Shown here: one piece after another, positions 13,605-59,100 of the stretch
Layout: every line of letters begins with the position of its first letter
Position numbering within the stretch: position 1 is the stretch's first letter
Assembly: GCF_000372725.1 (NCBI RefSeq)
Contig: NW_005201192.1
Location: forward strand, 1,004,758 to 1,068,757
Origin: Emiliania huxleyi CCMP1516
Taxonomy: Eukaryota
Length of the DNA stretch: 64,000 bases
Direction: 5' to 3'
Notes under the pieces: model-generated
Database searches by the model: none
What the model was told of the DNA's origin: nothing
Seen by the model: only the letters and a program-made list of their open reading frames with translations
Made by a program: the position numbers and the translations under genes

Positions 13605-15258
13605 GTAGCTGCCTCTCGCTCCTAGAGGCCTAGTCTCTCGTGAGGAAGCCTCGCACCGGGGCGGCGCCTCCTGAGCGGCCCCAGATCGCGATGAGTCGCG
13701 CTGGCAGCGCCCTGGCGCAAGGCTGCTGGCACAGCCGCCTAGGCCGCTGCCTCGCGGATGCGGAGCAGCGGCTCCCACTTGGTCGGGCACGCGTCGGCGT
13801 CGAGCAGCCACGCCTTGATCCTCTCGAACCGCGCGGAAGAGCCTGTCTCGCGGTTGCGCTTGCCGTACTGCAGCACGCCTACAAGCACAGGCACAGATCA
13901 CAGAACTGGTGAGGTGTGGGCGACTTCTCTCGCCGCAGAAGGTGCGCACGCACCTTCGGTGTCTGGGACGAAGGTGAGCGTCTGCCACAGCGACATCACC
14001 GTGTAAGCCACGAACTTGAGCGTGATGGTGCGCGAGCGGCCCGACGGGAGGAAGGTGAGGTACTGCTGGAGGAGCGCGGGCCACTCCTTGTGCGCGAAGG
14101 CCAGCAGCGTGTGGTTCTGCGGGTCGACGGCGGCGTGGAAGGCGAACATGAACTCGTCCTCGCCCTCAAGCTTGAAGCCGGGCGGCGCTGCCACCAGCCC
14201 AGCGAACAGCGCCACGTGCTCCGCCTTGGCCGCCGCGTGCAGAGTGGCGTTGGAGGCGTGCACCATGACGCGGTGGATGATGCCCGAGTAGATGAGGAGC
14301 AACTGGTTGCGGAGGTCGGTGTTGAGCTCCGACTCCGCCTCGCGCAGCGTCGCACGGAGGTTCTGCTTGAACTGTGTCTTGAGCAGCACCTTGGACCCGG
14401 TGTTGTCGGGCAGCGGCAGCGCAGCGATGACCCCCGGCAGGATGTCGTCGAGGGAGAGCCCAGCAACGGTCTCGTCGAGGTGGGCGAGGATGTACGCCTG
14501 GATGGGGCGCACAATGACATGGCGCCTCAGGCGTTTGTATGGAGCGATCTCGGGCGATCTCGATCGATCTCAGGCAAATTTTGGGCAATCTCGGGCAATC
14601 TCGGCGACACCTTGATGGCGCGCACGACGACGTGGCGCTTGCCGCCAAACGTCCGCCGGTCGGGAGTAGGCTGCCAGTACGGGGAGGCGCCCGCCGCGGC
14701 AGCGCCACCGCCGCCACCGCCGCCACCGCCGCCACCGCCACCGGCCGGGCCGGCAGCGGCGGCGGCGGCGCCGCCCAGCGCCGGGATGAGCTGTGAGACG
14801 AGGGCGGTCGCGATGTTGTTGGGCAGGGAGGTGATCGCCTGCGTGAGCAGCGCCTGGTTGAACTCGCGGTTGGGGTCGTCCGCGCCGTTGGAGTCCTCGG
14901 CCCGCGCAGCCTTCTCGTACTCGTCTTCCTCGAGCTCGGGGTCAGAGACGCCGTACTCAGAGCCCTCGACGGAGGAGAGGATGTCGCCGCCGAGGCCGTC
15001 GGCCGAGCCCGACTCGGATGGCGCGTACGACGTGTCCGAGTAGTCGCTCTCGCTGCGCGCGTCAGCCTGTGTGGGGCACCGAAGAAGCGTTCAAGAGCGC
15101 AGCGCTGGCGTGGCGGTCGCTGCGAAGCAGGCGCGCGCCTCGGCAGTCGGCTCCGGGTGGAGGTCTTGGAGCGTCTTGGCCTCTGTCTTGCCAGCTTGGT
15201 CGGTCACGGGGGTCGTGTTGACACCGGGAGCGCGGCGGCGCTGGCGCTTCTGAGGCAT
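13605..15258 (-). CDS. Multi-exon hypothetical protein (basic N-terminus, acidic stretch, Gly linker, helical domain); 3' end approximate
   Basis: Coding-like exons MPQKRQRRR..., ADARSESDYSD...EEDEYEK..., AYILAHLDE...KFVAYTVMSLWQ, joined by GC/GT-AG introns. Confidence 0.6.
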
Positions 15259-15698
15259 GTTGAAGTCTGAGAGACGGTTGAAGAAGCGACCGTGGGATCA
15301 TGGTCCGTGAATTTCGAGCGCGAACCGAAGATTCCTTTGCCGCTCCCGCCTCGAATGCGCGAATCGCGCGGTCTAGGTGTTGTGTTCTTGTGTTCGGTGT
15401 AAAGGGAAGTAGTTTGCTGAAAAAGCCGGCGACATTCTTCAAGAGAGAGAGAGAGAGAGAGAGAGAAACAGAGAATACGGCTGCTTGCAGGCTGCAGACG
15501 CATTTCAAGACATGCTTTTCTGGGTGGTGCCAGCTTGGGGCAGCAGCATGTCGTGTATAAACTAATTTCTCTTAGCCACTGCACACAACGTGCACACCAA
15601 GACGCCATTCATCCATGAGAGAGAAAGAGAAAAAACGGCCTTAGCGCGCGGTGAATGGAGGAATGGAGCTGCCCTGAGGAACGATAAACTCGCTCGAG

Positions 15699-17885: not shown

Positions 17886-18020
17886 ACGGCAAGGCAGAAG
17901 ACACGGACGCTCGTAAACAGCAAGGGCCAAGGCACCTAGGCAGAAGACACGCCCGCGCGTCACACCGCCTGCACACCGCAAAGAGCAGATAAGAGTAGCC
18001 GTCGCCGCGTGCGCCATCGT

Positions 18021-18315
18021 GGTGGATGGGTTGGGAGCAAGGGGGCGGAAGTGGCCAGTGCGGTAGATCGGTTAGTCGGGGCGCGAGAGGTGGCCTGTGA
18101 GCCATCCGGCTTACATTTACCCTGCGTTGTTGAGCCAGGACTCAACATACTCGTTCTGTTGCCGTCCCAAACTGTCATTCCCCTTTCTCCCGGCCGGGGC
18201 GGGGCGCGCGCGGGGGCGGCGGGTGTGCGGCGAGTGTGCGGGATGTCTGTGGGCCCGAGAGCGATATGCCATGTCCGCCTTGCGTTGTTTCATCGAAGGC
18301 TAAGCTCAAAAGAAA
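18021..18315 (-). mobile_element. Partial copy 2 of the 11501-11957 element
   Basis: ggtggatgggttgggagc...gagccaggactcaacatactc...gaaggctaagctcaaaagaaat, near-identical to copy 1. Confidence 0.85.
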
Positions 18316-18385
18316 TCAACAAGCCGAAAAAAGTCTCGCCGCAGAAGCGCACTTCGCTCGGGTCGGCATCTCCGCCGTGCACGTG

Positions 18386-22674
<4,289 letters not shown>

Positions 22675-22899: not shown

Positions 22900-25158
22900 T
22901 CATTCCGCCACAACGCAGAGCCGCGCAAGCGAGGCGTCGCTGCAACCGCAGACGTCGGCGCCGGCCGCCCTGAGCGCGCGAATGTGCTGCAGCGCCTCCG
23001 CTGTGATGGGCTCGCCCGGGAAGAAGACGGGGATGCCCGGGGGGTAGGAGCAGACTAGCTCTGCGCTCAATCGCCCCACCGCCTCGCGCGCGTCGACCAG
23101 CTCCGACGGTGCGAAGAAGGCTTCGCGGGGCGTCAAACCCCGGCCGTCGGCGACGGCGGCAGGCAAGGGCAGCCACACCGGCGCCGGTGCCGCTGGTGCC
23201 GCTTCTGAGGCCGAGGCCGCCGGGGCTGAGGCTGCGTCGTCTGCGGCGGCGGCGAAGGGCGCGGCGTCGGCGTCGGCGGTGACGTCTCGCAGCGCCTTGG
23301 GGAGCGGTTTGGGGGAGGGGTGAAGGAGGAGTGGAACGGCGTGCCGCTGGAGAGTGTGGCGTGGTGGTTGCGCTGCCGCCTCGACGAGCAGGTCGACATC
23401 GCCCTGCGTGGTGCCCAAGCTGAAGGCGAAGGTCAAGTGCCGCAGCTCGGGCAGCTCGCAGTACACACCGTGCCGCTCGATGAGCGCCTCGTCGAGGTCG
23501 AACCCCGACCCGGCGTCGTCGCACCGCACAACCACGCGCAGCGGGTCCGTCTCCACCCCGCCGCCGGCCGCGCCCCCCCCTGGCAGCGCGAAGACACGCA
23601 CGCCTGGCAGCTGCGAGAGGCGGCGGCGCGCCTGCTGCGCCAACGCTATGGCAGCGGCCGTGTCCCTGCGCGCGTCCGCGTCCGCATACTGCCACCGCGC
23701 GGCGTCGAGGGAGGCCAGCAGCAAGTACGATGGGCTGCTGCTCTGCACCAGCTCGAGTGCCTGAGGGACGACACCTAAGAAACGTCTCGGACGTGTCGAG
23801 GAAATGTCTCGGAAGTGTCACCTCGAGCGCGCGAGGGGCGGCGCCGTGCGGCAGCGGGCAGTCGGCGGAGATGTGAAGCATTGCAGCCTGCGTCATCGCG
23901 CCGAGCGTCTTGTGGCTGCTCTGGATGACGAGGTCGGCGCCGCGCGACAAGGCGGGGCGCGGCAGCCCCGGTGCCATCCCCAAGTGCGAGCCATGCGCCT
24001 CGTCGACGATGAGGGGCACGCCTAACGGGGTCCCGGCGACGAGCCGGTGGGTTCGGGTACTATGGGGTAGGGGAGGGCGGGTTCGGGTACTATGGGGTAG
24101 GGGAGGGTGGCGCACGCCTAAGGGTCACGGCGACGAGTCTTGCGCACCACGACACACGGGGTCCTCTCGCCGGCGATGAGGGGCACGCCGGCGGCGCGGC
24201 AGAGCCGGCTCGCGGCCTCCACGTCGGAGAGCACCCCGTGGTAGGTTGGCGAGACGAGGAGCACCGCCGCGATCTCGCCGCCGTGCCGCTCGAGCAGCGA
24301 CGGCAACGACGCGCCGACGTCAGCGTCGAGGACCAGCTGCTGCGCCGCGTCCCACCGAGAGTCGAGCCACACGGGCGCGGCGCCGGAGGTGACAAGGGCG
24401 TGCAACGCCGACTTGTGCGCGTTGCGCGGAATCACTACCTTGGGGGCAGGCGCGCCTCCGCCTCCGCCCCCGCCCCCGCCCCCGCCTCCGCCCCCGCCTC
24501 CACCTCCACCTTGCCGAGCTGAGAGGAAGTGCTGGACGCACGCGATGACCTACCAGACATGAAGGGGCATTCGTGGACGCGCCCTGGACACCGCTTCGAG
24601 GCCGCGAGACGAGGGTCATGCCGCCGCGAGGATGCCGCCCGTGGAGCCTATCGGACATGTCTCGGACACGTCATGGACAAGTCCTGGGTGCACCGCAAAA
24701 CCTCCGCCCGTGGAGCCGTTGATGAGGAAGTGGGTGCTACGGGCGCCAAAGGCCTCGCTCGCCAGCTGCTGTGCCTCGTGGATCGGGCCCTCCGCCGAGA
24801 AGAGGTTGTCCAGCTCCGGAAGCTCCGGCAAGTCGGACCGCAGCGGAGCTGTTCGGCCGGCGGCACCGCCCAGGACCGCCTCTCGCAGCGGCGCCGGCGC
24901 GCCCTCGCCCATCTTGTGGCCAGGGAAGAAGAAGGGCGCGCGGACGGACTGGGAGGCCCGCTGTATCGCGTCGATGAGCGGCGTGTCTGACTGTGAGAGC
25001 ATGCGTCCAGTCTCTGAGTCGGTTTGCTGTTGTCGTTGCTGCTGCTGTTGCTGCTGCTGCTGCTCCTGCTGCTGCACGACACCGCTCAGCAGGGTCGTGC
25101 GACTCCTTGTCGACAACGCCGCAGCGTGCCAGCCGGAAAGCACGGACAGCAACATCAT
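22900..25158 (-). CDS. PLP-dependent Orn/Lys/Arg decarboxylase (fold-type I), multi-exon, with N-terminal targeting extension
   Basis: PFFFPGHKMG, DLPELPELDNL, FLINGSTGG, PRNAHKS, VSPTYHG, VDEAHG.H, QSSHKTLGAMTQAAMLH, QSSSPSYLLLASLD, SYPPGIP..FPGE. Confidence 0.92.
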
Positions 25159-25453: not shown

Positions 25454-27030
25454 TCACCGACGGCCGGGCGGGCCGCCCGCCCACGCGCCGCCTACGCGCA
25501 GCGCGTGCGCCGCAAACTCGCCCGCCGACAGCGCTGGCCAGTCTCCATCGGCCGTCGCGAGAGGCCTGCCCGGCTGTCGCCGCGGGGCCCCCACGAACAC
25601 CACGCGTCGGATGCGGTGCCGCGCGAACTCGCGCGCAAAGTGCACGCCCCACGCCCGCCGCAGCGTCGTAGCGAAGTTCACAGTCTGCTCTGCGATGGTC
25701 GAGATATTTGGCGAGCACTTTGGCGCGGCCGGAAAAGGCCCATTCGAGGCGCCTGTGACGGAGGCCCGTGCGCGTCGCGGCACTGGTAGTGCCGATGGCT
25801 TGTGTGCTGTCCGACGACGAAGACAACGGAGCGCCTCCGCACCGCTCCGGTGTCTCGACCAGTGCTCGAACTTTACCGGTATGAGACCGGTATTTGGTGA
25901 TATTTTGATTAACTTTGAAGTGGTATGGTATAGTGGTATGCGAAAGTGGTAGGCGTAAGTGTTGATTAGTGTAGCGGCTGTGGGTGTGGTCCCAGGTGCC
26001 AGGAGGCGAAGCCATGCAAAAGTGCGGGTATTACCCGGGTATACCCGGATTTTTACAGGTATACCCGCAAAATACCGGGTATTTTGCCAATTTCGCCGAT
26101 TTAGCCGCAAAAATGCACTCGGACTCGCTTTTGGTTTCCGTGAGGCAGGTGGTATCCCATACCACTTTTTGATTAGTGCAGGCCTAGGGTTTGATTAGCC
26201 AAAAACTCCCATACCGGTAAAGTTCGAGCACTGGTCTCGACTGACTGCCATCGCGTCCCCGTGCTCCGTGCAAGCTGAGCATTGCCGAGCATTGTCTGGA
26301 AAGAGCGTGGGCGGCGCTGGCGCCACCGTCTTCTCCTCTCCCTTCTTGTACTCGTCCGTGTACTTGAAGTAGCGCCACTGGTAGACGCGAGAGTCGGCTG
26401 GCAGCTCGTACTCTTGATAGCCGCCCGCCTCAGTCAGCTTCCAGTTTGGAGGGAGATGAGCAGCGAGTCGCCAAGCCAGGCCGGCAGGCTGCTCGACGGC
26501 GAGGAGAGGGTCGCCGCGAAGGAAGCCCAGCCGCGCACCTGCGGGACGTGTCATGGAGGGGACGTGTCGCGGACATGTCATGGAGGGGACGTGTCATGGA
26601 GGAAGCCCGGCCGCGCACCTGCGGGACGTGTCGCGGACATGTCGCGGACACGCCGGGGACACGAGAGGGGGGGGGGCTCGCACGTCTGCCGCCGCCTCGC
26701 TGCCCGGCAGGAGCGTGCGCGCCGCCTCCTCGGAGCCGCGCACGAGCCTCGAGGAGGCGTAGAACTTGCCGACCACCCCGCCCATAAAGTCGCGCGCCGG
26801 GAAGTACCAGCCGAGACTCACCGTCGCACTCGCCGTACCGTGCGGCGGGACGACTAGCCGCACCACCGCACCGCCATGCGAGCCTCCCATCGCGCCGTCG
26901 AGGCGCCCCGCCTCTGCAAAGGATCGCCACAGGGCGACGAGCGAACCGGCGGTGTGCCAAAGGAGACTTCCGCCGCCGCAGCGCCGCCCTCGCCCGCGCC
27001 GCAGAGCGAAAGCTTCCCGGCGGACGCGTG
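25454..27030 (-). pseudogene. Chimeric gene relic: GH116 (GBA2-like) internal fragment fused to unrelated coding fragments
   Basis: HGGAVVRLVVPP...SLGWYFPARD..G.FY and W......LPAWLGDSLL.SL, then an abrupt frame switch at about 26445 to NWKLTEAGGYQEYELP.... No start codon. Confidence 0.5.
25860..26233. mobile_element. hAT-type MITE (374 bp)
   Basis: TIR cagtgctcgaactttaccggtatg / cataccggtaaaagttcgagcactg. 8-bp TSD gtctcgac at 25852-25859 and 26234-26241. Confidence 0.92.
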
Positions 27031-28263: not shown

Positions 28264-30181
28264 TCACGAGGTGAGCAGAGCGCTCTTGACGGCCTCCTCC
28301 TCCCCTCCCATGTCCAGCCGCTCCACCGGCCGATGCCACTCGTCCGGGACTCGCGATTGGCCGTCCATCCAGCCGTCGGTCCGCGAGCCGACATCGTGCC
28401 GCACCGCCTCGCACCTACGCTCGGGTCATCTCGGGTGATCACGGGTGAGCTCAGCCGACATCGTGCCGCACCGCCTCGCACCGCCGGCTGAGCGCGCGCA
28501 CGGCGGTCAGCTCCTCCTCGAGGCGGGCCTACCCACAGCGCTGGTGTGCGTCTGCTGCCCGCAACGGACCGTCTGTGCGGCTCCCGGGGGCGTGCCAGCT
28601 CGGTGAAGAGCACGCGATGCCAGACCTCGGGCAGCAACGAGCGGAGCAGCGACTGGTCGCGGATCCGCTTCGTCTCGGCCTCGAGGGCGATCTCGAGCTG
28701 GTCCGCCGTCTCGCTCACCGCCTAGGGCAGCAGGTAGGCGGGGTGGGCAGCAGGTAGGCGGGGAGGGCAGCAGGTAGGCGGGGAGGGCAGCAGGTAGGCG
28801 GGGAGGGCAGCAGGTAGGCGGGGAGGGCAGCAGGTAGGCGGGGAGGGCAGCAGGTAGGCGGGGAGGGCAGCAGGTAGGCGGGGAGGGCAGCAGGTAGGCG
28901 GGGAGGGCAGCAGGTAGGCGGGGAGGGCAGCAGGTAGGCGGGGAGGGCAGCAGGTAGGCGGGGAGGGCAGGAAGTAGGCGGGGAGGGCAGCAGGGAGGCG
29001 GGGAGGGCAGGAAGTACCTCGACGAGCGGGATCGCGTCCTCGGTCGTCACCACCTTGGCCGAGGAGGCGAGCGGCGCCAGCTGCGCGTGCAGCGCGGCGA
29101 TGCGGCCGAGCCGGAGCCAGATGATCGCGACGTAGTCCAGGTCGGAGAGCACCACCCCGAAGGAGGCGCTCATCTCGCGCTTCGCCGCCATCTCGTCGCG
29201 CGCGTCGCCCGGACCGGACTCGGGCAGCGCCCGCCGAGAGGTGCGGCGCCGCTCTCGGTCGATCTCCTGGTAGGAGCGCACCCGCTTGCCGTCGGCGGCG
29301 ACGTTCCGGTACGCCTTGCCAATGGCGCCTAGAGCCACGCCCTCTGGTGCTGAAGACACGCCGTCCGCAGAGTGTCGCCGGCAGCCGTGCCGATGGCGCC
29401 GCTCTGCAGCCGCTTGCTCTCGTGCGCGTGCACCACCTGCCGAGAGAGAGAGAGAGTCACAGGTGGGGGTGAAGAAGCAGAGGCACTGAGAGAGGAGTGG
29501 GGTGGGAAGACCACCTCGAGCAGGGAGACGACCGGCCGCAGAGACTCTGGCTGCAGGAAGAGAGAGCGGTGGATTGCGGTGGGCAGCCGCCTCTCCACTC
29601 GCGCCAGCGCGTTGAGCAGCCACGAGGGCGTGTCCTGCGGGAGGTGTGGAGGAAGAGAGGCGTGAAGAAGAGGTGTGCGCGCGAAGCTGTCGGGAGACTG
29701 GAGAGGTGTGAAGAGAGGCACGCGCCTCGAGTAGGCAGGTCAGGGCGACACTCCACAACGTGAGAGGCCACGCCGCGTGCAGCGTGAGCAGCACAAACTG
29801 GGCGGGCGAGACCGACAGCGTGGTCCGCAGCCGCCACGCCTGCAGCACGTACACAAAGGAGCCAACGTACATGTACATGCCTCCGATGGCAAAGAGGCAG
29901 GCGGCCGCGAGCGGCGGCCGGCCCTCTCCCTTACGGTACTGCACCATCGCGGCGCCCGCCACGGTGGCGATAATAGCGTTGCGGTGGTAGCTGAGGAATG
30001 TGTTGTCCGCGTTGAGCCGCAGCGACCAGCGTGCGATCTTTGAGGCCGTCTCTGCACTGTTGATTGAGGGCGGCGATGGCGCACGGGAGCAGTAGTTGCA
30101 CCGCAGCGGGAGAGCTGGCCTGAGCGGGCGGGAGAGCCGGCCTGCCCTCTGCAGCGATAGAACGCGGAGCATCGGCAGCAC
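28264..30181 (-). CDS. Multi-exon membrane protein with DUF202 (YidH-like) motif and mitochondrial-type presequence
   Basis: RLNADNTFLSYHRNAIIATVAG plus three TM segments. Exons can be traced to ...EEEAVKSALLTS* at 28264. Confidence 0.65.
28724..29014. repeat. 20-bp G-rich intronic minisatellite (about 14 copies)
   Basis: Unit gggagggcagcaggtaggcg. Confidence 0.95.
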
Positions 30182-31591
30182 AAGACGACAGATCGCCAGG
30201 CTCGAAGGGCGCGTAGTCGTCCCCCCGCCCGCCCTTTCGGTTTTGACGTGCCACCCGCTGGCGAGGTACTCCCACGCCTCTCGGGGTTTTTGTCTGGCCG
30301 AGTCAACCCGAGAGGCGTGTCTCGCCTCGTCAAGTCTGTGGGACGGCCGAGCCTCGTTTCAAGGGGCGCGTGCGTGCGTCCCCTCTCGACTACGTTTGTT
30401 CACAGCCGGCGCGCGCGCCGGCGACGAATATGCGCGACTCGCCGCCGCGGCTCCGGGCCTCCAACGGCACGACCTACGCCCAACCACCGAGAGGCGCGCC
30501 GTCACACCACTCGCACAGCCTGCAGCGCGGCGCTGCGCCAGAGCTCGAGAGGGCCCGAGAAGGGTCCCAGATCTCCAGTAGCACACAATAGCACACGTAG
30601 CCACGCATACCCAACCATCCCCTGTCACCCCAGAGCAGATCCCCCCAGGCGGTGAGGTCCTTTCTGGTGCTTGAAGCTCACCCTCGTCCCCTGCCGCAGG
30701 CCCTCGGCAGCCGTCCTGGCGCGCGCCAGGGCATGTACCGAGCGACCCCAGTCCGCTCTGGCGCGCGCGTTCGGCGCCGATTGGTGCCCTAGTCGGACCG
30801 TGCAACGGACGCGCGCTCTGCGCGCCTCACACGCACTTGCCCAGAGCTCTGCGCAGAGGCAGAGAGAGAGCGCGCCCTCCCCCCGGGCTGCTGCTGGCGC
30901 GCCACGCGCGTGCGATCCCTCTCTCGCAGTCGGTGTTCGCCGGGCGAGTTTTAGAGCTAAAATACATGTACATCACAAGACGCACACGCTGCTGTGGTCA
31001 CCGACGGTCGTGTCCACATGCGCGCAATGGCGCAATGGTGGGCAGCGCCAACGCGCAGGACCATGTTTGCGCGCGACATGCACGCACGGGTGCGCAGGCA
31101 GGCGAGGCCATGCCAAAGACTGCCCTGGGAGTCGCGCGCGCGCGTCTCCAGCCGACCGGTACGGCGGCAAGAGCTTGACGGCTGTCGTGCCCGCAGCACG
31201 ACAGCCGTCAAGCCGCGCAGTCGGGTGGACGCGTCGCGTCGGACTTTTTGCCACCACCTCCACGAGTCTGTCCAGTGCACCCACTGGCCAGATGCCGGGC
31301 CTCGGAGGCTGAATCGAGCGCCGAGTCAGGCCGACCTGGCACTGCTGAGGCAGGTCACGCCTGCTGGGGCGAGCCTCGGCGAGACTGCGTCAGCTGTTCC
31401 CACAGCAGGCTGGAAGTACCTCGCCAGGCCACCCGCAAGATCCGGTGAGGGAGAGAGGTGGTACCCGGTCAGTCAGCGCGCTCCGGTCAGGTCGATAGAG
31501 TATGTATACTACAACTTAGAACCGCGTCTAGGTAAAATTCGATGACGTTGACGATGTACACGGATGACCGTCCACAGAGGCACAGAGTTGA

Positions 31592-31856
<265 letters not shown>

Positions 31857-32604
31857 ACGTCACTGCATCCTCCGCCGGTTCCTCCCGTCGCCTCTTCTTT
31901 GTTCGAATGTTTTTCAATCCATCCTTCACGAAGCCCTCCCATGTAGCTAGCGTTCTTGGCGAATGTCTCGAAATGGCCAGCAGGCGCTGTCTGCTCGCGG
32001 TCTGTGCGGGCCGCTCGTCCTCCTCGCCCTTCTTTCGTCCTCCCGTCCCTCCCCTCCACCATGGCCTTCTCGGCACTTCTTTCTCCATCCGCCTCGCCCT
32101 GCCTTTTCGCATCGTGCCGTTCGCCCTCCATTCGGTGACCTCCATGGCTGTCCGCCCCTTTTTGGGTGGCGCTCTCGATACGGTTGCGTCAACCTCGACG
32201 TCGCTGTCGCCCTCCCCGTCCCCGCCGGCGTCCGTGCCTCGGTTCGCGTCATCGGTAGCGTCTCCGTTGTTCCCTTTGACTAGGGTCCTCATCTCTGGTC
32301 CACGCCGCGGTGGCCTTTGTAGCATAGGAATCCTACGTCTCTGACTCGACTCTCTGACACCACTAGACCCCGAGTATTCAGTCGTCCGCGTTCCCCTTAC
32401 CTTATCTCGGCACGTGTTTTAGATCCCCAGAGCCCAGTTCGCGCAACACCCGACACCGCGACGACTTACGTGGTTACGTGTTCACTGTCTGTTGTGCTCA
32501 AGTGTGCTCCTCAACGCAAGCACTGTCTCAAGGATGGCGTCCCGAATCTCCCGGCGAGGGCCGAGCCCCCACCTCGCGTCTCGCCGTGAAGGCCGGCTGC
32601 GCAG

Positions 32605-33456: not shown

Positions 33457-34174
33457 TCAGCTCCAGGCGCCGCCAGCCAGGTCGGCCTCCTCCTCCTCCG
33501 CGTCGGCAGCCTCGAGCTCCCTCGCCAGCTGGATGGTCCGCGACATCTCAAAGTCGGCATGCAGCGCCGCGGCCGAAACGGACCTACACGGGCTCGTGGC
33601 GCGCCTCACAGGCACCGCGCGCGGGGGGGGCGAACGGCGAGAGAGCGCGGCCGCCACTCGAGTCGCTCGCCGGTCCGGCGGTTGCGGGAAAAGTACTCGA
33701 GGCTCGCAGGCGCCTCCTATAAGCGGCACAGATTCAGAAGCCGCCTCACGTGCTAGGCGCAGGCTACTGCTGGAGGCGTGCCGCGCTCGCCTGGAGCAGC
33801 GCGTTGACCACCTCGGACTCAGACTCGGATCCGTCGGGGCGCAGCGGCACGAAGCGGATCTGCTTGGCAAGCCGGTCGACGTACACGTGCTCCTCGACCT
33901 CCGAGTCGTACGAGGTGGCGCGTCATTGCCTTGTGAAGGTCAGGCAGCGCCATGTCGGGCCTGAGCCAGCCGGGGCGTGCAGCTCCACCGAGACAGGCAT
34001 TCCCTCCGGGAGGAAGGACTCGGGCTGTGCGACCTTGCGCATCATAGCGATCCACACCTTGTGAGGCGACGCCCCATCGAGTGACATCGAAACGCCGCTC
34101 AGCCGGGCGCACTGCCTGCGCGTCGTGGATTCAACGGCACAAACGCCAAGCGGCGGCCGGCGAAACAACCTCAT
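33457..34174 (-). CDS. START/SRPBCC-like (DUF1857/AtaL-like) protein, three exons, with an in-frame TGA at 33923-33925
   Basis: KVWIAMMRKVAQPESFLP...WRCLTFTRQ*RATSYDSEVEEHVYVD...IRFV...VVNALL, then LEYFSRN..TGERLEW. Confidence 0.5.
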
Positions 34175-36091
34175 CTATATGTGGCCCGTCAGGCCAGCGA
34201 GCAGCGTGGGGAAGAGACTGCGTAAAAAAAAAGTGTCTTGGCCCTGCACGATCTTGGTGTGAGGGATCTTCAATCCACGTGGCCCCTCAACCCTCGAATT
34301 CTGCCGGAATAGACAACAAAACAAGATAGTGAATAAAGGGTGTGGATGCTGGGTTGACCGAAATCGGGGGACGCGACCCACTTCGCCACAGATGGTCCCG
34401 CGCCTCGCCGCTATGACGGGCACACGCCCCGCACCGTCCGCTGTGTGCCCGTCTTTGTCCGGAGTGAATACTCCAACGCGCTCGTCGGTGACGGTGTCCC
34501 CCGATTTCGCCGCGCTCCGGCACCGCTCCGGCGTCCGGGACGCACGCTCTGGGGGGGCGCGGGGGCCCCCGGAGGCACCGTGCGCCGCGCAGCAGTACGG
34601 AAATGGGGCTCCGGCTCCGTTAGTCTCCGTTAGCACCAACTTCCCGATTAAGTACGGTTAAGTAGAGGGCAGATTTGGAGAGAACTCGAGGAGTACATAC
34701 AGATAGACCCTCCAACCATCAGAAAACTCCGACCTGATTGGTCGTACTGACCGCCGACAGATCACTCCAGACAGCAGACAGGCCGACGTCTGCACACGGC
34801 CGGCCGGGCGAGAGGCTTGACACGATCCGACCCTGCGAGACCCTGACGCTGCTGCTCTAGCTATCAGACATGCACTGCTGACTGCTGCCACAATGTGCGA
34901 CCGGTGCTGGCCCACTTGGCGGCCTTCCCGGTCAGTGGTGAGGCGCAGTTCAGAGCTGTCGATGGCGCGATGCCGCACTGGTCCCACATTGGTAACACGA
35001 GACCACCACGTTTGCCGGTCCAAGAGAGAGGCACTGGTGCTGTCCTGAGAAGGTGCGTGGTCCCTCTTGACTGCCCATGCGCGCGAGGCTGTGTAGGCAT
35101 AGCCTCGAGAGTGCCAGCAGCCAATCCGAGGCGACGCGCATTGCGTCAGAAGCGTGCACACGTTGGAAGGACACCTTCCGACTGGCCGTACGATCAGGTC
35201 GTCACTGAATGCTTGATACTAAGGCCGCGAGCTATGCAGGTGATCAATTGTGCAGCATGGCACGGTCAGCAGCGCCGACAGGCTGTCGCAAGGCGTGATA
35301 GCATGGCCGCAAGTACGCCGAATTCCCATGAAAAAGTGAAAAATCGCGCAAAAAAACCGAAAAAATCGGCGCCTGCGGCGGGCCATGGGACCCCATCGCC
35401 CCCCCGCATGGATACCCTCTAGGGCCCCCGCGCCCCCCCAGAGGACGCACGCCGGCGAAGCACGTCAAGCTGCTGTACGGCCCCGGAATCGCCTCCCCTC
35501 GCTTAGCTAGACTGAGAGTTATTGTGCACATGGTTAGTCTCTACAATATACTCACTGACACCCCCCCCCTCCCAGAGCTCGTCCCGGTCCGCCACGGCCA
35601 TCCTCGGCCTCCGGAGGGCCCCCGGCCGCGCCCGCGGCGCGGTGCGGCGGCGTCACAAATCCGACGGCAGAGCACCGGGACGCGGTCGGGCGATCTGAGG
35701 TCCAGTGAGGCGTATGCATTGCCCATCCAGGGCTATCACATGGACCTATCAACAGGCGCCTGCGGCGGAGCAGGAGGGCCCGGCGCACAACCCCCTGGTC
35801 AACTCACCCTCCACACCCCCCGCCCGTAGACACGCCGTGGCTACACATTCACATACAGAGTTTGTTTTTGTCACATATATCATATTCCGACACAACACAC
35901 AAAGCCTTTGATCTCAAAGCTGCGGGTCCCCGCAGGGCCCAGTCGGTGCACTGCAGTCCGATCTGGCCTGCCGGCCGGGGGAAAGAAGGGCGGCGAGAGC
36001 GCAGCAGCAGGGCGGCGAGAGAAGGGCGGCGAGAGCACAAAGGGCATAAGGGCAGCGCAGTTGTACGTGACTGCTGCACTCACATGTCACA

Positions 36092-38491: not shown

Positions 38492-39701
38492 CTAGGGCTG
38501 CTTGGCCGTGGCGGCTTTGGAGGCGGCGCGGAGGAGGCCGAGGAAGAGCGGCGACGGCTTCATCGGCCGCGACTTGAACTCGGGGTGGAACTGGCAGCCG
38601 ACGAAGAAGGGGTGGCCCTGTAGCTCGAAGACCTCCATCCGCTCGCCTAGTCCCGGACAAACTCGGCTTGGTCTCGGGCGGTCTCGCGGCCGGCCTCGCA
38701 GGCCCGGCGGCCGCTCGCCCGTCGTGTCGCGGCCGACAAAGTCGAGGCCGGCCGCCTACGGGGAGGTGTCGAGGCGGCTCCGAGAAGGCCCCATCCCCTT
38801 TGGGTGGCCGGCAGAGCCGAGGTGGGGGAAAGCGGGAGGGTTGAGCGGGCTTCGGCCTGCCCATATGAAGGCTTTGATGTGGGGAGAGGGGCATTGGGTG
38901 GAGAAGCTGCTGCTGAGGATGTGCAATTGGGTGGTGGAGTGAGGTACACATGCTGGGCCGGCCGCCTCGAGCTGCTGCACGTAGGCCGGGTTGACCTCGT
39001 ACCGGTGGCGGTGGCGCTCGTCGAAGGCGGTGGCGCCTAATCTCGGGTGATCTCGGGTGATCTCGGGATCATCGCGGGAAAGCTCGTCGAAGGCGGTGGC
39101 GCCGTTGTACAGCTGCGCGGTGAGGCACTTTGGCGAGCGGAGCATTGTCTTCCTCGCGCCGAGCCGCATCGTCCCACCCATCTGAGTGCGGCTGCCTTCG
39201 GGCATGAAGATGATGAGCGGCGTGGCGCACTTCTCGTCGAACTCCGCCGAGTGGGCAGTCTTGACGCCGAGCACCGACCGCGCAAACTCGATGACGGCGA
39301 TCTGGAAGCCGAGGCAGATGCCGAGGTAAGGCACGCCGTTCTCGCGCGCGTAGTTTGCAGCGAGCATCTTTCCCTCCACGGCGCGGATCCCGAAGCCTCC
39401 CGGCACCAGCACGCCGTCTGCGCGCCGCAGCTTGGACCACGCCTCGTCGTAGGCTAGCCGGTCCGACGCGAGCGTTGTCTCGTCGAGGTGCGCCGAGTCG
39501 ATCCACATGATCCGGAGCTTGCGCTCCACGGCGAAGGACGCGTGCATCAGCGCCTTTGTGACGGAGAGGTAGGCGTCGGACAGCTCGGTGTACTTGCCGA
39601 CGACGGCGATGTGCACGTCGAGCGTGAGCGAGTCGACGAGCTCCGCGAGGGACGTCCACTCGGCGGCGAGGGCCTTCTCCGGTCCGCCGATCTTGGGCGT
39701 G
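38492..39701 (-). CDS. CTPS: CTP synthase, glutamine amidotransferase half (5' part lost in gap); introns 38647-38718, 38756-38965, 39037-39102
   Basis: [71 protein letters not shown]. Confidence 0.95.
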
Positions 39702-45532: not shown

Positions 45533-46971
45533 ATGACCCTTGCCGGCGCTCAGCCCAAACGATTCACTCCGCCGAGCATCTCCTCGACCGTCTGCTTGAG
45601 CATGCGCTACGCTTCCGAGTCGCTTGGACTCGCACAGTGCTTCCGCTGCCGCACAGTTTTGCCTCTCTGCACTTCGCCCATTTGGATCGCACTAAACCTA
45701 GCCACGTTACCGCTCGGCTGGCCCTTCGCCATCCGGGGCCTCTTCAGCAGCAGCGCCACCGACCGTGTCCAGCGCTCGGCCTCTGGCACAGCGAAGGCGG
45801 TTGCCCTCCTCCGCTTTCGGGCCGCGGAGCTGGGGTTTGGCCCCGACCACCTCGCCGGCGCTTTCACTCACCTCTTCTACGAGGACCTGCCTGCCGCCTT
45901 TCTCCGGGCGAGGGGCGCGATCGAGAGGTGGGAGTACTTCGTCACGGGCAGGATCGGCGGCGGAGCCTGCGGCGTTCCTGCCGGCTCCTAGGAACTGCAC
46001 AGGGATTTTGCTGCATCTTCCCACAGGCGCCGGCTTCGACACGCGCTGCTACCGGCTCGACATCGGCAAGACCGCGCGCTGCTTCGAGGCGTCACCCCCG
46101 CGCGCGAGCCGCCGCCGTCGTCGCGCCCGCCTCGCCACCGCCGCGCACCCGCCTCTTCTCGCCCGCCTCCCACCACCCCCCTCCCTCCTCCCACCCTCCC
46201 CGCCGCTCGCCAGGTCGATGCGCCGACCACGCAGGCGCTCAAGCGAGAGAGCCTGAGCCGCGCCGGCGTCGACTGCTCCCACGTCACGTTTGTGCCGGTC
46301 GACTTTGCCCACTCGGACTGGTTCCAATGCTTGTGTGACGCGGGGTTCGACCCGCGCCGGCGGACCGTCTTCATCTGGGAGGGCTGTCCTCTACCACCTG
46401 CCCGCGCAGACTACGCGAGAGACTCCGAGATTAGCCGAGATTTCCGAGAGTAGGCGTCTTCTACTATCTGCCTGCCGAGGCCGTCGACGCGACGCTGCGG
46501 CGGATCGCAACCTTGTGCAGCGACGCCGTCCTCGGCTTCGACTGCTTTGCCGACTGGATGGTCGCCTTCTCGGGCCTGCTCCTTGCGCGCGTCTACGGCG
46601 CGCCGAGATCACCCGAGATCACCCAGGATCACCTGCACGACCCGCGGCATCACCCGCACCGCTGCCACCCGCACCGCCCCCTCGCTCCGCCCCCTCGCTC
46701 GTGCGCCCGCCCCCACCCTCGACCCCCACCCTCCTCCCCCTCACGCCGCCGCGTCCCGTCCCTCTCAGGCGAGCCACTCCTCACCGGCATGCCGCGGGGG
46801 GGCGAGGAGGCCCTGCTCGCGCGCAACAGCCTCGTCGCTGCCGACGTTACCCGGCCGTTTCGCAGCGCGCGGCGGCTGCTCCCTCTGGATGAGGGGGGAA
46901 TGACGATCGGCCCACCGGCATACCTACTTCTCGCCGCCACCTTCCTCACGGCGAGGACCAAGCCGCGGTGA
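45533..46971 (+). CDS. SAM-dependent methyltransferase, leucine-carboxyl-methyltransferase-like family, multi-exon (may have an internal deletion)
   Basis: TA..VA..R...DHLA..F; GAGFDTR.YRL; FEVDAP.TQ..K; FVPVDF; GFD..RRTVFIWEGV.YYL. Confidence 0.75.
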
Positions 46972-51555: not shown

Positions 51556-51738
51556 CCACGGCTTGGACTAGCCTCCATCACCCTCCGGTTCCGGGTCCGG
51601 TGCCAAGCCCCGCCCCGCCCCGCCCCTCTTGCAACCCGCAGGCGGAGTGGATGGCGGCGCAGCGCTCCCGCCCGCTGCAGTGGCGGCAGCCGCTTCCGCG
51701 ACATGCCCCTGACGTCTCCTGGACATGTCCCGTAGGCG

Positions 51739-51917
51739 AGAATTTTACAGGACAGAATTTTACAACAAAACTCCCTCGCACAACACTGGGCACGGGACTG
51801 GCGCGCACTGGCACTAACACAGGTACACCACTGGAGCAGAAAAGAATCTTGCAAAAACTTTCTCGCACAACACTGGGCACGGGACTGGCGCGCACTGGCA
51901 CTAACACAGGTACACCA
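51739..51917. mobile_element. Two tandem right-end fragments of the 53724-53877 MITE family
   Basis: agaattttacaacaaaactccctcgcacaacactgggcacgggactggcgcgcactggcactaaca, duplicated. Confidence 0.75.
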
Positions 51918-51996
51918 CGGGAGCCGCCTAAGCGACTCCCGCGAGGACGGCCAGAAAAGAATTAACAATGCCGGTGTCTGCCACCTGTAACCTCTC

Positions 51997-52275: not shown

Positions 52276-52302
52276 CCTGTAACCTCTCTTTAAGGTATTG
52301 CT

Positions 52303-52357
<55 letters not shown>

Positions 52358-53289: not shown

Positions 53290-53723
53290 AACATGCGCTC
53301 CTCGGACGCAAGGAGTGCGGAAGCCGCAAGCACCTCCTCGAGAGCAGGCTTCCAGGTGGGGACGCTGAGCATCTCGCCTCCACTCTCCCGTTTTGCTCGG
53401 TTGGGGTTGTCATCGGCCGCCGGCCCCACCGCAGGATGGTGAGCTGCATGGAACTTTCCCGGCCGGGGGGGGGCGCTGCCTTTCCCCCATCCATAGCCGC
53501 CTTTTGTTCGCGCCCCCCGTCGCCCTTCGGAGTTGCGCCCTCGTGTCTCAAACATGAACAGGGGTACGGAAGTGCGGACGATGGCGACAGGGATGCTAGA
53601 TTGTGCATTATTCTCGTTGACGTTGTGGGAACTCCTGTGGACCTAGCTGTGGACTATACAAACGGTATTATTTCTTTGTGTATTAACATTTGATGTAATG
53701 TACCTTAAGGTACACATGTATTC

Positions 53724-53877
53724 GTGCCAGTGCGCGCCCGCGCGCGTCCCCGTGCCCTGAAAGCAAGATCTCAAAACAGTAGGCCAAGAGAGGGAAGTCC
53801 CGTGTGCCCTGTAAAGAGAATTTTACAACAAAACTCCCTCGCACAACAATGGGCACGGGACTGGCGCGCACTGGCAC
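53724..53877. mobile_element. Short MITE with imperfect TIRs
   Basis: gtgccagtgcgcgcc...gtccccgtgccc versus gggcacgggactggcgcgcactggcac. Confidence 0.7.
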
Positions 53878-54781: not shown

Positions 54782-54859
54782 CGTGCGATCGTTGGCCTCG
54801 GTGCCGACACGTTACCCACACCATGCAAATGCGGCGGCTGCGCAGCGTTCGCCAAGACC

Positions 54860-55339
54860 TTTTCTTTTTCCGAGCTTAGCCCTCGATGAAAACAAACGCA
54901 AGGCGGACATGGCATATCGCTCTCGGGCCCACAGACATCCCGCACACCCGCCGCCCCCCCGCGCGCCCCACCAGCTTTGCCAACAACATACCTAAAACCC
55001 CGGCTGGGAGAAAGGGGAATGACAGTTTGGGATTGAAAGTCGAGTCCCTCGCACTCCATGTGCGAGAACGCAGAGAGAAATGAAAGCCACGCGTCCGGCC
55101 CCCAAGTCCGGCTCACGCGCCCCGAGCTCACCATCTACCGCACTGAACACTTGCGCCCCCTCGCTCCCAACCCATCCACCTCGCCTCGGGCCGCGCCGCG
55201 CAATCTCGGTCGATCTCGCGCAATCTCGGGCGATCTCGGGGCCGCGCCGCGCTATCTCGGGCGATCTCGGAGCGTCGCTTGCGCGGCGGCACACCTGCTC
55301 AAAAAAGGAAGGGCCCGGTTGGAGCCACGGGGCTCACGC
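54860..55339 (+). mobile_element. Copy 3 of the DINE-1/HINE-like element (inverted relative to copy 1)
   Basis: subTIR ttctttttccgagc ... gctcaaaaaaggaa, followed by hairpin gagcc-acgg-ggctc at 55322-55335; internal ATCTCGG repeats. Confidence 0.85.
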
Positions 55340-55589
55340 ACTCGCTCAGGGCGCCGCCTCACTCTGCGCCACTTTTGAGGCGTTGGCGAAGGCCGGTGAG
55401 GCGGCGCCCCGCGCGGCGCGTTCCTCGCCCTCCACGCCGACCCCTGCGCGCACCGCTCATCTCGGCCCTCCTGGGGTTACTCTCGCGCTCGTGCAGGGGA
55501 ACCCGGCGGGACTCCCTTCCCCCCACCTCCGACGGGTTGGGTCGGTTCTGCGCCCCTTGGCGCCTGTGCATATCGCGTGCCCGCCCGAC

Positions 55590-56160
55590 ATGGCTGGTGC
55601 CAAGGCCAAATCAACTGCCAAGGCTGGTGCCAGGGCCAAATCCACTGCCTGGCTGGCGCATCTCTGAGGCTACCCGCGCGCTGACTGCTACGCGCGCGGC
55701 GAGAGGCGCACCCCATCGGGGACAGGATTGAGGCCCCTGTACAAGCTCGGCAACGCTGCCGTCGTTGCCCTCCCGAGCCCTCAACACGATGCCGCACAGT
55801 GCGCAAGCCGTTCTGCGCACATGCCGCAGGGAGGAGTTTTCACTCTCCCGTCTGAGTTTCTCCTTCCTGCAGACGCGCAGCGCAAGGCTGGAGAACGCAC
55901 GCCAGTGCACATGCATCCCGACCCGCAGTTCTCCTGCGTGCGCCAGGGGCGGGTGCTAGACCAGATCGAGGGCCACGAGGACAAGGTTTACGAGCCAGGG
56001 GAGTGCTACCTGATGCCGCCGAACACGAAGGCACGCTTGTTGGGGCGGTCGTCGCCAATCCAAGGCTCCACGCCCACGCCGCCCTCCCCCCTCGACCGCA
56101 GATGGCTGCCATCTGCGTGAGCCCGGACGGCGAGGACTGCATCATCGACACGAGGATATC
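55590..56160 (+). CDS. Cupin-fold protein (multi-exon, possibly degenerate; boundaries approximate)
   Basis: RKAGERTPVHMHP.PQFSCVRQG....IEG....VYEPGECYLMPPNTK, then a GC-AG intron, then MAAIC. Confidence 0.55.
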
Positions 56161-56593
56161 TTCCGCGTGCCCGACTGCTCTACGTCCTGGGTCGTCCTCG
56201 AGCCGTCGATGTACTATCTGCAAGACCAGTTTTCACAAGAATTGGGAGCGTAGCCAGCCCGCAGTACCCTATAAGGCAGTAACCAGAGCGCACGGACCAC
56301 GGTGTCGTAAACCCTTGTACGGTAAATAAAGGAAAAGCCGTACCATGTCCATGAGAAATCGTGCGTGCACAGCGGTGTGCGTGCTGTGTGGTCCTCTGCC
56401 GCGCGCCGCCGTGTCGCGGTATGTCTTTTGCGCGTAGTGTCGGTTAGTGCAAAATGTGAGATAAGAGTAATCTAAGAACAAGACACAATACACAGTGCAC
56501 GCACGCGAGATAAGAAAACAGCTGAGACGAAAGGGCACCACGTCGGTCCGCTGCGCCGTGGAGAGACTCAGTCGGCCCGACACCCCTCCTGGA

Positions 56594-59100
56594 TCACAGG
56601 GGCGCGTCCGGAAGCAGCTTCACCGTCTTGCCTCCTCCCCTCTCGCCCGACCCGACAACGACGCTGTCCAGTGGCGCGAGCGGCGGCGCCACCTCCCTCA
56701 GCACGGCTCTCCGCGCGGGGGCTCCGCTCGGCGCAGCGGCCAACGCGGCGGCGGCTGCGGCGGCGAGCTCAGCGCTGCGCGACGCCTCCTCTCCCGCCTC
56801 GTCGACCGAGGGGAAGACCTCGTGGTGGCGGTGGGCTCTGTGGTGGTACGGCCGCGCGTCGCGCTTGATCAGGCGAGGCGTGTGCTGCTCGAGGGACGAG
56901 ACTGCGCGCCGGACCTCGTGCGCCGCCTTGTCGCATGCCTGCAGGAAGGTTCCAGGAAAGGTCCAGGGGCGGTCTAGGGAAAAGGCGTCGCGGTGCGCCG
57001 CCTTGTCGCACGCCTGCGCGCCCTGCCGCACCGCCTGCCGACCGAGCTGGTGCGGCATATACTTGCGCTTGAGCGTCTTGCGCCGGCCCACCAGCGCGCA
57101 GCCGACGCAGATGAGGCCGATGCCGAAGCCCATCACGGAGAGGTTCGGCGAGACGGGCACGTACTTGTGCTCCTGGTCACAGGAGTGAAGGAAGGAGTAC
57201 AGGGAGGAGGGAAGGAGTTCAGGGCACGTCACAGCATTGAGGGAAGGAAGGGAGGGAGGAAGGAAGGAGTTCAGGGGCACGCCCTTGTGCGCCTGATAGA
57301 CGACGAGTCCGCCGAGGACGGAGGTGGTGGTGACGGTGCCGTACTCGATGGGCAGCAAGCGCGAGGCGGGCAAGTGGACCAAGCCCTTGCGGAGCCAGTA
57401 GATGGCGGCGAGCGAGAGGAGCGCCCACGCAAGCAGCACGACCCAGAAAAAGGCGAAGCAGAGCTGAGAGTCCCCGACCGCGGTCAGTGCGAGCATCGAC
57501 GAGCCGCCCTTCATGCACATCTGCACGAGCGTCTCGAGGCCGCCTACAAGCGAGGGCCCGGGCAGGCTCCGAGCAGCTTCAGGGCGCGACAAGGCCAACG
57601 GCCATTCTTTGGCCGCCGACAACGATCGGGTACGCAAACGGCATCGCACTCTCCAGGCGAGAGGTGCTTGCAGCTCCCTCTGCAGCCCCGCGCACGGGAG
57701 AGGGGGAGCCGGTGACCTGCGGTGGGCAAAGAACAAACGGCCCGGTACGGTGAGAGGCGATGCAAGCGACGCGAGNNNNNNNNNNNNNNNNNNNNNNNNN
57801 NNNNNNNNNNNNNNNNNNNNNNNNNNNNNNNNNNNNNNNNNNNNNNNNNNNNNNNNNNNNNNNNNNNNNNNNNNNNNNNNNNNNNNNNNNNNNNNNNNNN
57901 NNNNNNNNNNNNNNNNNNNNNNNNNNNNNNNNNNNNNNNNNNNNNNNNNNNNNNNNNNNNNNNNNNNNNNNNNNNNNNNNNNNNNNNNNNNNNNNNNNNN
58001 NNNNNNNNNNNNNNNNNNNNNNNNNNNNNNNNNNNNNNNNNNNNNNNNNNNNNNNNNNNNNNNNNNNNNNNNNNNNNNNNNNNNNNNNNNNNNNNNNNNN
58101 NNNNNNNNNNNNNNNNNNNNNNCGCGGTGCGCCGCCTCGTGCTTCCCCGACATGGCAAAGTGAGGTGAGGGGTGTGCGCCCCCAAAAAATTGCGGAGGGG
58201 GGGGGGGGGGGGTATGGGTGTGGGTCGGCGCGCCGCGGGATTACAAGGGCTATTTGCAGTGGACAGTCCTCGAGCGCTAGTCGGGAGACAGGGCGGGGCG
58301 AGTGGTCCAGCATCTAAGTGAGTGTGGATCTAGCGTCTCGTGCCGCACGACCAGCACAGCGAGCGCTGTCACAGAGAGGACGAGGACGAGGAGGTAGCCT
58401 GCAGGTTCGAAGGGGGGGGGGGGTTAAGAAGCGGACTCTGTCTCGAAAGAGCGCGAGAGGGGCGCGTCCCCGGAGAGGGGCGCAGTCCGGCGAGGGCCGA
58501 AGAAAGCGCAGCCAAAAGACCGCGCGAGAAAAGGGGGTGCGGAGGTGGCCGCATCTAGCCCCAGCCGCCAAAGCCGAAGGGGTTGCTGGTCGGCGAGAGG
58601 AGCCTCGCGAGCGCGGGCGCATCGTACGACACGACCTCGGCAGGCGCGTACCAGCCCGTGACAGCTATCCCGCCCAGAATCAGCGCCCCGCCGTGGTAGT
58701 CGCATCGCCGCAACTCCTCGTGCAACACGCAGCGCGAGAGGGCGGCGTTGGCGACCACGATGGTTGCCATCAGCGCCGCCGCGAGAGACGCGGGCGTGAA
58801 GGCGAGCGCGAGGACAAAGACGCCGTTCCCGCCAAAGTAGACGGTGAGGCCCGCGAGCCAGATGGCGTGCGTGCGCGGGACGCGCGCCAGCGGCCCACGT
58901 ATACTCTGCGTGCCGCAGCAGTCTCCGAGCAGCACGTGCGGCTCGATGAAGGTGAGCGCATATTTCTGGATGGTGATCCCGATGGCGAGTAGCAGCACGG
59001 AAAGGAGGCAGAGCGCTATCCCGATGGCGCCGCCGCTGCCGTCCTCGCCCGCAGGAGCGAGCGGCGGCGGAGGAGGCGCGGTGGACGCGGAGCAGCTCAT
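56594..59100 (-). CDS. NIPA-family (DUF803, DMT superfamily) Mg2+ transporter-like protein, multi-exon, spans a gap
   Basis: GITIQKYAL; IWLAGL..YFGGN....ALAFTPASL.AAL....VVANA.LS...LHE; YWLRKGL....S.LLPIEY......VLGGLVVYQE. Confidence 0.85.

What the first reader, a model, noticed from the sequence alone, without database searches (positions are those of the whole stretch)
14498..57292. Recurrent 'duplicate-and-fill' introns: a candidate ongoing intron-gain system that could explain GC donors
Seen: many introns in unrelated genes begin with a direct copy of the first bases of the following exon, then low-complexity filler ending in YAG. Examples: 28415-28481 (29 nt, perfect), CTPS 39037-39102 (21 nt, perfect), 38756-38965 (10 nt), 38647-38718 (8 nt), NIPA 56939-57013 (21 nt, 1 mismatch) and 57173-57292 (18 nt, 3 mismatches), decarboxylase 24648-24716 (13 nt) and 24022-24188 (15 nt), 29329-29399 (16 nt, 2 mismatches), methyltransferase 46383-46453 (about 26 nt, decayed), 19532-19956 (about 9 nt), and a 28-nt duplication around 14498-14638. 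The donor is the pre-existing exonic G|GC or G|GT, and the acceptor comes from the filler. Inference: an insertion duplicates the target (staggered-break repair or template switching), adds repeat DNA and splices out cleanly. The range from perfect to decayed copies suggests an age series. Variable-length duplications and non-homologous bodies differ from classical Introner transposons, which have fixed short TSDs and near-identical bodies.
Basis: partly seen in the sequence, partly recalled or inferred. Interest (0 to 1): 0.88.

Follow-up and report, generated by a model that had tools for sequence, protein, structure and literature searches.

The report
Algal introns born as truncated insertions
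In the bloom-forming alga Emiliania huxleyi, many short introns begin with a copy of the next exon's first 6-29 bases and end in repeat DNA shared with unrelated genes, likely because shortened retroelement-type insertions land in exons and splice out cleanly, which would explain why most introns of this alga start with GC.

Summary
All 12 quoted duplications exist. An RNA contig skips the three CTPS introns, and a database protein reads across both quoted NIPA introns. A close, intron-rich CTPS relative lacks all three positions, which favours gain.

Three corrections. (1) Bodies are homologous: fillers form two 10-11-nt repeat families aligned at the acceptor across unrelated genes. (2) Intron 19532 is a 5'-shortened copy of a high-copy element with a (CCTTA)n tail; a second copy has an 11-nt target duplication. 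(3) 14498 has mirror geometry, and some cases are local duplications at existing acceptors.

Best reading (0.5): target-primed reverse transcription of repeat-tailed RNA. The variable target duplication gives the G|GC donor; tail TA plus target G gives TAG. No reverse transcriptase and no sure empty allele was found, so 'ongoing' is unshown. Introner surveys list small families of unknown class here; my searches found no description of this anatomy, nor did the scan's earlier notes.

The parts
39037..39102 (-). CTPS intron 1: 21-nt exact copy of next exon start + 45-nt (CCCGAGATCA)n filler ending TAG; GC donor
   Evidence: RNA skip of 66 nt; position absent in L012-L022; anatomy
38756..38965 (-). 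CTPS intron 2: 10-nt copy, 210 nt, GC donor
   Evidence: RNA skip of 210 nt; position absent in L020/L022
38647..38718 (-). CTPS intron 3: 8-nt exact copy + decayed filler, GC donor
   Evidence: RNA skip of 72 nt; position absent in L020/L022
56939..57013 (-). NIPA intron: 21-nt copy (1 mismatch), GCAG shared upstream, 11-nt-period filler
   Evidence: P0022 reads across, P0024 retains
57173..57292 (-). NIPA intron: 18-nt copy (3 mismatches); filler doubled internally; a 66-nt form exists elsewhere
   Evidence: P0022 reads across; P0020 retains a 22-residue form against 40 here; 52-nt repeat
57544..57616 (-).
   Evidence: P0019, P0020, P0022 read across
28415..28481 (-). Intron with 29-nt exact copy + 38-nt CCCGAGATCA-family filler; GT donor
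   Evidence: sequence and frame; last 31 nt 87% identical to CTPS intron 1, both ending at the acceptor
29329..29399 (-). Intron with 16-nt copy (2 mismatches)
   Evidence: sequence and frame
24648..24716 (-). Decarboxylase intron: 13-nt copy + GTCCGAGACAT-family filler
   Evidence: sequence and frame; filler matches 21794-21823 and 51700-51735 up to their TAG
24022..24188 (-). Decarboxylase intron, compound: 15-nt copy at the donor, a second TAG + 6-nt exon-start copy inside
46383..46453 (+). Methyltransferase intron: decayed ~26-nt copy + CCGAGAT filler
   Evidence: p=0.002; homologs continue WEGV.. without insertion; Pfam LCM
19532..19956 (+). Intron = 8-nt copy + 5'-shortened dispersed element ((CA)n, ~175-nt body, CCTTA-type tail ending at the TAG)
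   Evidence: 84% over 268 nt to 31592-31854, match ends at the acceptor
31588..32286 (-). Non-intronic copy of the same element: 688 nt, (CCTTA)n 3' tail, 11-nt direct repeats at 32276-32286 and 31588-31598; candidate non-LTR-type retroelement fragment
   Evidence: depth >100,000 against ~100 and loose ends at 32275; no Pfam or Atlas hit for its open frame
21759..21823 (+). Duplication at an existing acceptor: 17-nt exon-start copy + local filler, inside intron 21461-21823
   Evidence: P0002/P0003 reading
26539..26618 (-). Duplication at an existing acceptor: 19-nt exon-start copy + copy of the preceding intron's own 3' end (14 nt shared upstream)
14498..14610 (-). Mirror case: GT + CCGAGAT filler + decayed 28-nt copy of the upstream exon end supplying CAG
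   Evidence: frame inference; no homolog
19225..19306 (+).
   Evidence: p=0.004; P0003 reading

Best explanation
These spliced introns start with a 6-29-nt copy of the next exon and end in repeat DNA shared between unrelated genes, and they are likely new introns made by target-primed reverse transcription of repeat-tailed RNAs into exons. Inferred steps: a non-LTR-type endonuclease nicks one strand at a G|GC or G|GT site; the nick primes on the 3' end of an RNA whose tail is a short tandem repeat ending ..TA or ..YAG (an element tail or an intron 3' end); copying stops early (38-67 nt in the short cases); the second nick 6-30 nt away gives the variable target duplication. The upstream copy then serves as donor and tail TA plus the duplicated G as acceptor, so splicing removes exactly the insert. 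Only sense insertions of about 65 nt or more at a usable donor would survive in exons, which would give the 66-75-nt length peak and a GC:GT donor ratio that follows exon composition. Copies then decay and introns lengthen by internal duplication.
For: Shown: exact splicing of three cases. Variable duplication length with constant total length in the short cases (29+38, 21+45, 21+54, 13+56, 16+55, 8+64, 6+67); 16 of 31 introns are 66-75 nt. Fillers homologous across genes, same orientation, in register at the acceptor; 23 contigs in each of two DNA runs share the CTPS filler end and three exon letters, then diverge. Intron 19532 is a 5'-shortened copy of an element whose other copy has a tandem tail, an 11-nt flanking repeat found only at those two places in the window, and an edge at 32275 where contigs of other copies leave it. 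All 31 next exons start with G and 29 of 31 upstream exons end with G. Positions absent in the closest relative, which has its own introns. Variable duplications, 5' truncation and tandem tails as non-LTR hallmarks: recalled knowledge.
Against: No reverse transcriptase or endonuclease was identified; the element's open frame has no Pfam or Atlas hit. No parent element was seen with the CCCGAGATCA or GTCCGAGACAT unit as a 3' tail; the only non-intronic arrays lie inside a 480-nt repeat. The retroelement evidence rests on one of the 12 examples, the one with the weakest duplication. Tails followed by an upstream repeat of 10+ nt: 13 of 63 against 244 of 2000 random positions, a small excess. Untargeted insertion predicts many short intergenic inserts; only two intergenic loci appear among 19 isolated repeats. 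Two of 15 intronic filler arrays are antisense (motifs were taken from these introns). 26539 and 21759 carry local filler and fit plain tandem duplication. No empty allele was shown.
Confidence: 0.5

Rival explanations
1. DNA-level repair: a staggered break or paired nicks duplicate the target and the gap is filled by template switching into a repeat tract at another intron's 3' end; selection keeps the spliceable products.
For: Same geometry. Short shared letters at the switch from copy to filler (seen at 21759, 26539). The mirror case 14498 and antisense fillers need no RNA polarity. Precedent in Daphnia, with 4-12-bp repeats (PMC4202315 passages).
Against: Does not by itself predict that fillers from unrelated genes end at the same letter, nor a shortened tailed element as a body. 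Duplications here reach 29 nt. Random breaks should leave more intergenic scars than seen.
Confidence: 0.28
2. Renewal, not gain: old introns are rebuilt when a duplication across the acceptor (or a partial cDNA conversion) puts the exon start into the intron and the old 5' part is lost.
For: Duplications across existing acceptors are seen at 21759, 26539 and 24022, and in large arrays in both introns of L020-L022 (7 and 3 extra exon-start copies).
Against: None of the three CTPS positions is present in L020/L022 (79 of 89 residues identical, own introns elsewhere) or L018. Filler is shared in trans.
Confidence: 0.1
3. A classical short DNA-transposon Introner whose bodies have decayed.
For: Co-opted donor and carried acceptor is a known Introner layout; Introner families are listed for this genome, one with a RepBase hit to Novosib.
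Against: Duplication length varies from 6 to 29 nt; bodies next to perfect 21- and 29-nt copies are only 87% alike over 31 nt and differ in length; no terminal inverted repeats were evident on reading.
Confidence: 0.06

Closest known systems
Introners that co-opt the 5' splice site from the target duplication and carry the 3' site (Symbiodinium, Polarella classes 4-6/8/10; bioRxiv 2020.10.14.339549, 2022.06.06.494994)
   Same: Donor from the duplicated exon letters, acceptor at the insert's end, mRNA unchanged, GC donors
   Different: There the duplication has a fixed length per class (3-8 nt) and bodies are alike end to end; here 6-29 nt, bodies alike only in a 3'-anchored tandem tract
Introner families listed for E. 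huxleyi CCMP1516 (supplements of PMC9860276 and PMC12130899)
   Same: Same genome; two families of about 70 nt, class unknown; one noted 'co-opt 5' carry 3'' and '10bp terminal direct repeats'; enriched in genes
   Different: 5, 6 and 45 members in the 2025 table, duplication given as 2-4 nt or unknown; that survey removed families whose likeness came from simple repeats. Their sequences were not seen, so overlap with this class is untested
Intron gain at staggered double-strand breaks in Daphnia pulex (PMC4202315; reviewed in PMC3443670)
   Same: [quoted passage not shown]
   Different: Repeats 4-12 bp, inserts AT-rich and mostly of unknown source; here longer repeats and shared filler families
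Non-LTR retrotransposons/SINEs with tandem-repeat 3' tails (recalled)
   Same: Variable target duplication, 5' truncation, 3'-anchored likeness, tail priming on similar target letters
   Different: No coding parent identified; here the products are precise spliceosomal introns
Tandem genomic duplication of AG|GT (PMC3443670)
   Same: Both splice sites can come from duplicated letters (56939, 57173)
   Different: Intron ends do not resemble the upstream exon (mirror control), except 14498 and possibly 23761

Membership tests
Introner (intron-generating mobile element) | Insert is spliced precisely from an exon | tested here: met
   RNA skips of 66, 210, 72 nt; P0022
Introner (intron-generating mobile element) | Position absent in orthologs or other alleles | tested here: met
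   three CTPS positions absent in L020/L022 and L018; one gene only; no sure empty allele
Introner (intron-generating mobile element) | Introns at unrelated loci similar along their whole length up to both edges | tested here: not met
   likeness only in the 3' 30-36 nt; 19532 matches a non-intronic copy over 268 of 425 nt
TIR DNA-transposon Introner | Fixed-length target duplication | tested here: not met
   6 to 29 nt
TIR DNA-transposon Introner | Terminal inverted repeats | not tested
   none evident on reading; no inverted-repeat search was run
Non-LTR retroelement insertion | Variable-length target duplication | tested here: met
   11 nt at 31588/32276
Non-LTR retroelement insertion | Copies share the 3' end and are cut at different 5' points | tested here: met
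   19532 vs 31588-32286, loose ends at 32275; for the 10-11-nt fillers only the shared 3' end is shown
Non-LTR retroelement insertion | Simple-repeat or poly(A) 3' tail | tested here: inconclusive
   (CCTTA)n tail on one element; no parent with the 10-11-nt units as tail
Non-LTR retroelement insertion | Autonomous partner with reverse transcriptase and endonuclease | not testable with these tools
   no whole genome held; fragment without Pfam or Atlas hit
Intron gain by staggered-break repair | Direct repeat of an exon end at the far end of the new intron | tested here: met
Intron gain by staggered-break repair | Inserts unrelated between loci | tested here: not met
   two shared filler families

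The most novel reading that the evidence does not exclude
A large share of E. huxleyi's introns were made, and are still being made, by a retro-mechanism with no dedicated transposon body: 40-60-nt repeat tails or intron 3' ends are reverse-transcribed into G|GC sites of exons, each new intron becoming a template for the next. One process would then account for the GC-donor majority, the 10-11-nt intronic repeats and the 70-nt length peak, and Introner screens would miss it because they discard repeat-driven families.
Probability: 0.3. Interest if true: 0.88.

Novelty: new variant of a known kind. Interest (0 to 1): 0.72.

Why it matters
Where new spliceosomal introns come from is a long-open question, and most gained introns have no traceable source. 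E. huxleyi uses GC donors in 56-65% of checked junctions, which PMC4028052 puts down to GC content alone. This anatomy gives a testable origin: the donor is exon sequence, the intron's age can be read from the decay of its copy, and the body can be traced to a source. It also names a class that current Introner pipelines filter out, and explains junction ambiguity and bad gene models in this genome.

Tried and rejected
No whole genome was held, so nothing here is genome-wide. Filler patterns in viral and prokaryotic collections gave 0, 1 and 8 loci, none with this anatomy. Homolog search for the 14498 gene: none of 4366 candidates. P0036 (methyltransferase) runs into the intron, so it does not confirm that junction. 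P0021 lacks intron 56939 while keeping three others, and its contig is exactly 75 nt shorter than that of P0187: an empty allele, partial splicing and assembly collapse cannot be told apart, so it is not counted. The tree used a mis-joined L020 row and its grouping (window+L020+L012, 84/91) is open; identity was recomputed. The cross-pair control (17 against a mean of 1.2) is inflated by the array at 28724-29010 and is not relied on. Candidates 17894-17939, 35369-35755, 51823-51909 lie in repeats or elements and were not counted as introns. Rejected: pure tandem duplication of exon sequence (mirror control); artefact of assembly (L010, L011, X3, X8 carry the CTPS introns). Literature: searches found no description of this anatomy in E. 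huxleyi; the 2013 genome paper is not held, supplement files 13-14 of PMC12130899 were not searched and the PMC9860276 file was cut when stored, so prior mention cannot be excluded. The scan's earlier notes held nothing relevant.
Full report
Setting. The window is 64.6% GC. Two of its exons match, at 100%, proteins that NCBI names as Emiliania huxleyi CCMP1516. No whole genome was held, so all counts are for this window. Pfam confirms the glutamine amidotransferase part of CTPS, NIPA and the LCM methyltransferase; the decarboxylase label rests on recalled motifs.

The observation. One RNA contig (run X12) skips 72, 210 and 66 nt at the three CTPS introns; the joints can slide by 9, 12 and 22 letters, which are the duplications; DNA runs X3 and X8 hold the intron sequence. 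The same call shows two spliced introns at 33584-33654 and 33717-33790 with no clear copy. P0022 reads across three NIPA introns. Six of the 12 examples have no read or protein support and rest on frame. 14498-14638 is not an intron; the frame-consistent intron is 14498-14610, with the decayed copy (third-position C to T changes) at its 3' end.

Chance. Intron starts match their own next exon far above permuted pairs (6.3 vs 1.7, p about 1e-5); the mirror comparison is at or near background. Without annotation, TAG|G sites carry an in-register upstream copy three times as often as non-AG sites (7 of 167 vs 122 of 8809, p=0.010), but CAG sites and pooled YAG do not. So the strong cases are beyond chance and about a third of these introns show a copy; an age series among the rest is plausible and weakly supported.

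Gain or renewal. A metagenome scan with the CTPS exon gave 13 loci from 217 candidates. L010 and L011 are the same gene with all three introns and 3-4 differences in 1211 nt. L020 and L022 (79 of 89 residues identical; L021 covers only the first position) run unbroken through all three positions and have their own introns at two other places where the window has none. L018 has an intron elsewhere and lacks the three; L012-L015 and L019 have no intron in the aligned part and weigh little; L016 and L017 cover only the first position and lack it. The taxa of these loci were not determined. Gain in the E. huxleyi line is the simpler reading, from one gene. No empty allele is shown; the P0021/P0187 pair differs by exactly intron 56939 but has three possible causes.

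The bodies. Fillers are not unrelated. The last 31 nt of CTPS intron 1 and of 28415 are 87% identical and both matches end at the acceptor; 24648 matches 21794-21823 and 51700-51735 the same way. Two families of 10-11-nt period appear, in the same orientation. In each DNA run 23 contigs share the CTPS filler end plus three exon letters and then diverge. Of 18 filler arrays, 15 lie in introns (13 sense; my placing), 3 outside (motifs drawn from these introns). Intron 19532 is different in kind: its last 268 nt match 31592-31854 at 84%. That second copy is part of a 688-nt unit with a (CCTTA)n tail, flanked by an 11-nt repeat found only there in the window, at more than a thousand times single-copy depth, with contigs of other copies leaving it at 32275, next to the repeat (depth is not a copy number). 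In the intron the element is cut inside its (CA)n tract and its tail supplies TA of the TAG. Its open frame has no Pfam or Atlas hit.

Mechanism. Shown: duplication, precise splicing in three cases, shared 3'-anchored bodies, one shortened tailed element as a body, absence in a close relative. Inferred: nicking, priming on an RNA 3' end, early stop, second nick, selection. In target-primed reverse transcription (recalled) the RNA's 3' end abuts the start of the downstream duplicate, which is where the acceptor sits; in 10 of 16 tabulated junctions at most one letter is shared upstream. In seven short cases copy plus filler sums to 66-75 nt whatever the split. Donors are GC 23, GT 8; exon GGC:GGT is 242:72; GGA is 79 yet no GA donor is among the 31, so selection for splicing also acts. 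Against: no enzyme or tail parent for the 10-11-nt families, few short intergenic inserts (two loci among 19 isolated repeats), local filler at 21759 and 26539, antisense arrays, and the mirror case. I give the retro route 0.5, DNA template-switch repair 0.28, renewal 0.1, a decayed DNA Introner 0.06; that these are gained introns with target duplication, by either of the first two, about 0.8.

What is known. PMC4028052 (passages): GC donors 56-65%, ascribed to GC content; heavy intron retention. bioRxiv 2020.10.14.339549 and 2022.06.06.494994 (passages): Introners that take the donor from a 3-8-nt duplication. PMC12130899 (passages; supplement rows) and PMC9860276 (supplement rows): E. huxleyi holds 3-5 Introner families, two of about 70 nt and unknown class, one noted with 10-bp terminal direct repeats; repeat-driven families were removed; non-LTR Introners are about 5%. 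PMC4202315 and PMC3443670 (passages): staggered-break gain with 4-12-bp repeats. PMC3609843 (passage): template-switch model. PMC11782384 (abstract): direct repeats near splice sites in general. PMC8379373 (passage): E. huxleyi is intron-richer than other haptophytes. PMC2784329, PMC3174169, PMC3488318, PMC11282704 (passages) added nothing specific. The 10-11-bp intronic repeats of the 2013 genome paper are recalled, not read. Ten searches found no account of variable 6-29-nt exon-start copies in this alga.

Verdict. Real; a new variant of known intron-gain routes; interest 0.72. Recent gain is likely, ongoing gain is open.

Noticed in passing
L020:2225-3670 and 3691-5800 (also L021, L022): In a close CTPS relative both AT-rich introns are filled with repeated copies of the exon boundaries: 7 extra copies of acceptor + ~65 nt of the next exon, 3 extra of the following one, and several of exon end + donor.
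   Followed up: partly
window 11500-11957, 18018-18316, 54861-55339: A ~480-nt dispersed repeat with an internal CCGAGAT array; all three copies seem to sit just upstream of a gene start, same end towards the gene (gene starts read by eye).
   Followed up: partly
window 34300-35900: Very high-copy DNA (depth 90,000-300,000 against ~100), holding a 14-nt direct repeat around a ~370-nt insert at 35369-35755.
   Followed up: no
window 57173-57292: P0020 implies a 66-nt form of this 120-nt intron without the internal 52-nt repeat: length polymorphism.
   Followed up: partly
window 56939-57013: P0021 lacks only this intron and its contig is 75 nt shorter than that of P0187: possible empty allele.
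   Followed up: partly
window 1713-1781: Interstitial (TTAGGG)n-like array, 11.5 copies.
   Followed up: no
window 9847-9985: 24-nt direct repeat around microsatellite and GGAGAT units between two divergent genes, with no splice-compatible register.
   Followed up: partly
window 23296-23379 and 23761-23830: Decarboxylase: a likely intron with AAG acceptor, and one whose 9-nt duplication allows either a GC or a GT donor in frame.
   Followed up: no
L003, L005-L007, L009: Viral contigs share an array of CCGAGATCCG units with GATCCTA repeats after a terminator-like site; unrelated to the finding.
   Followed up: no
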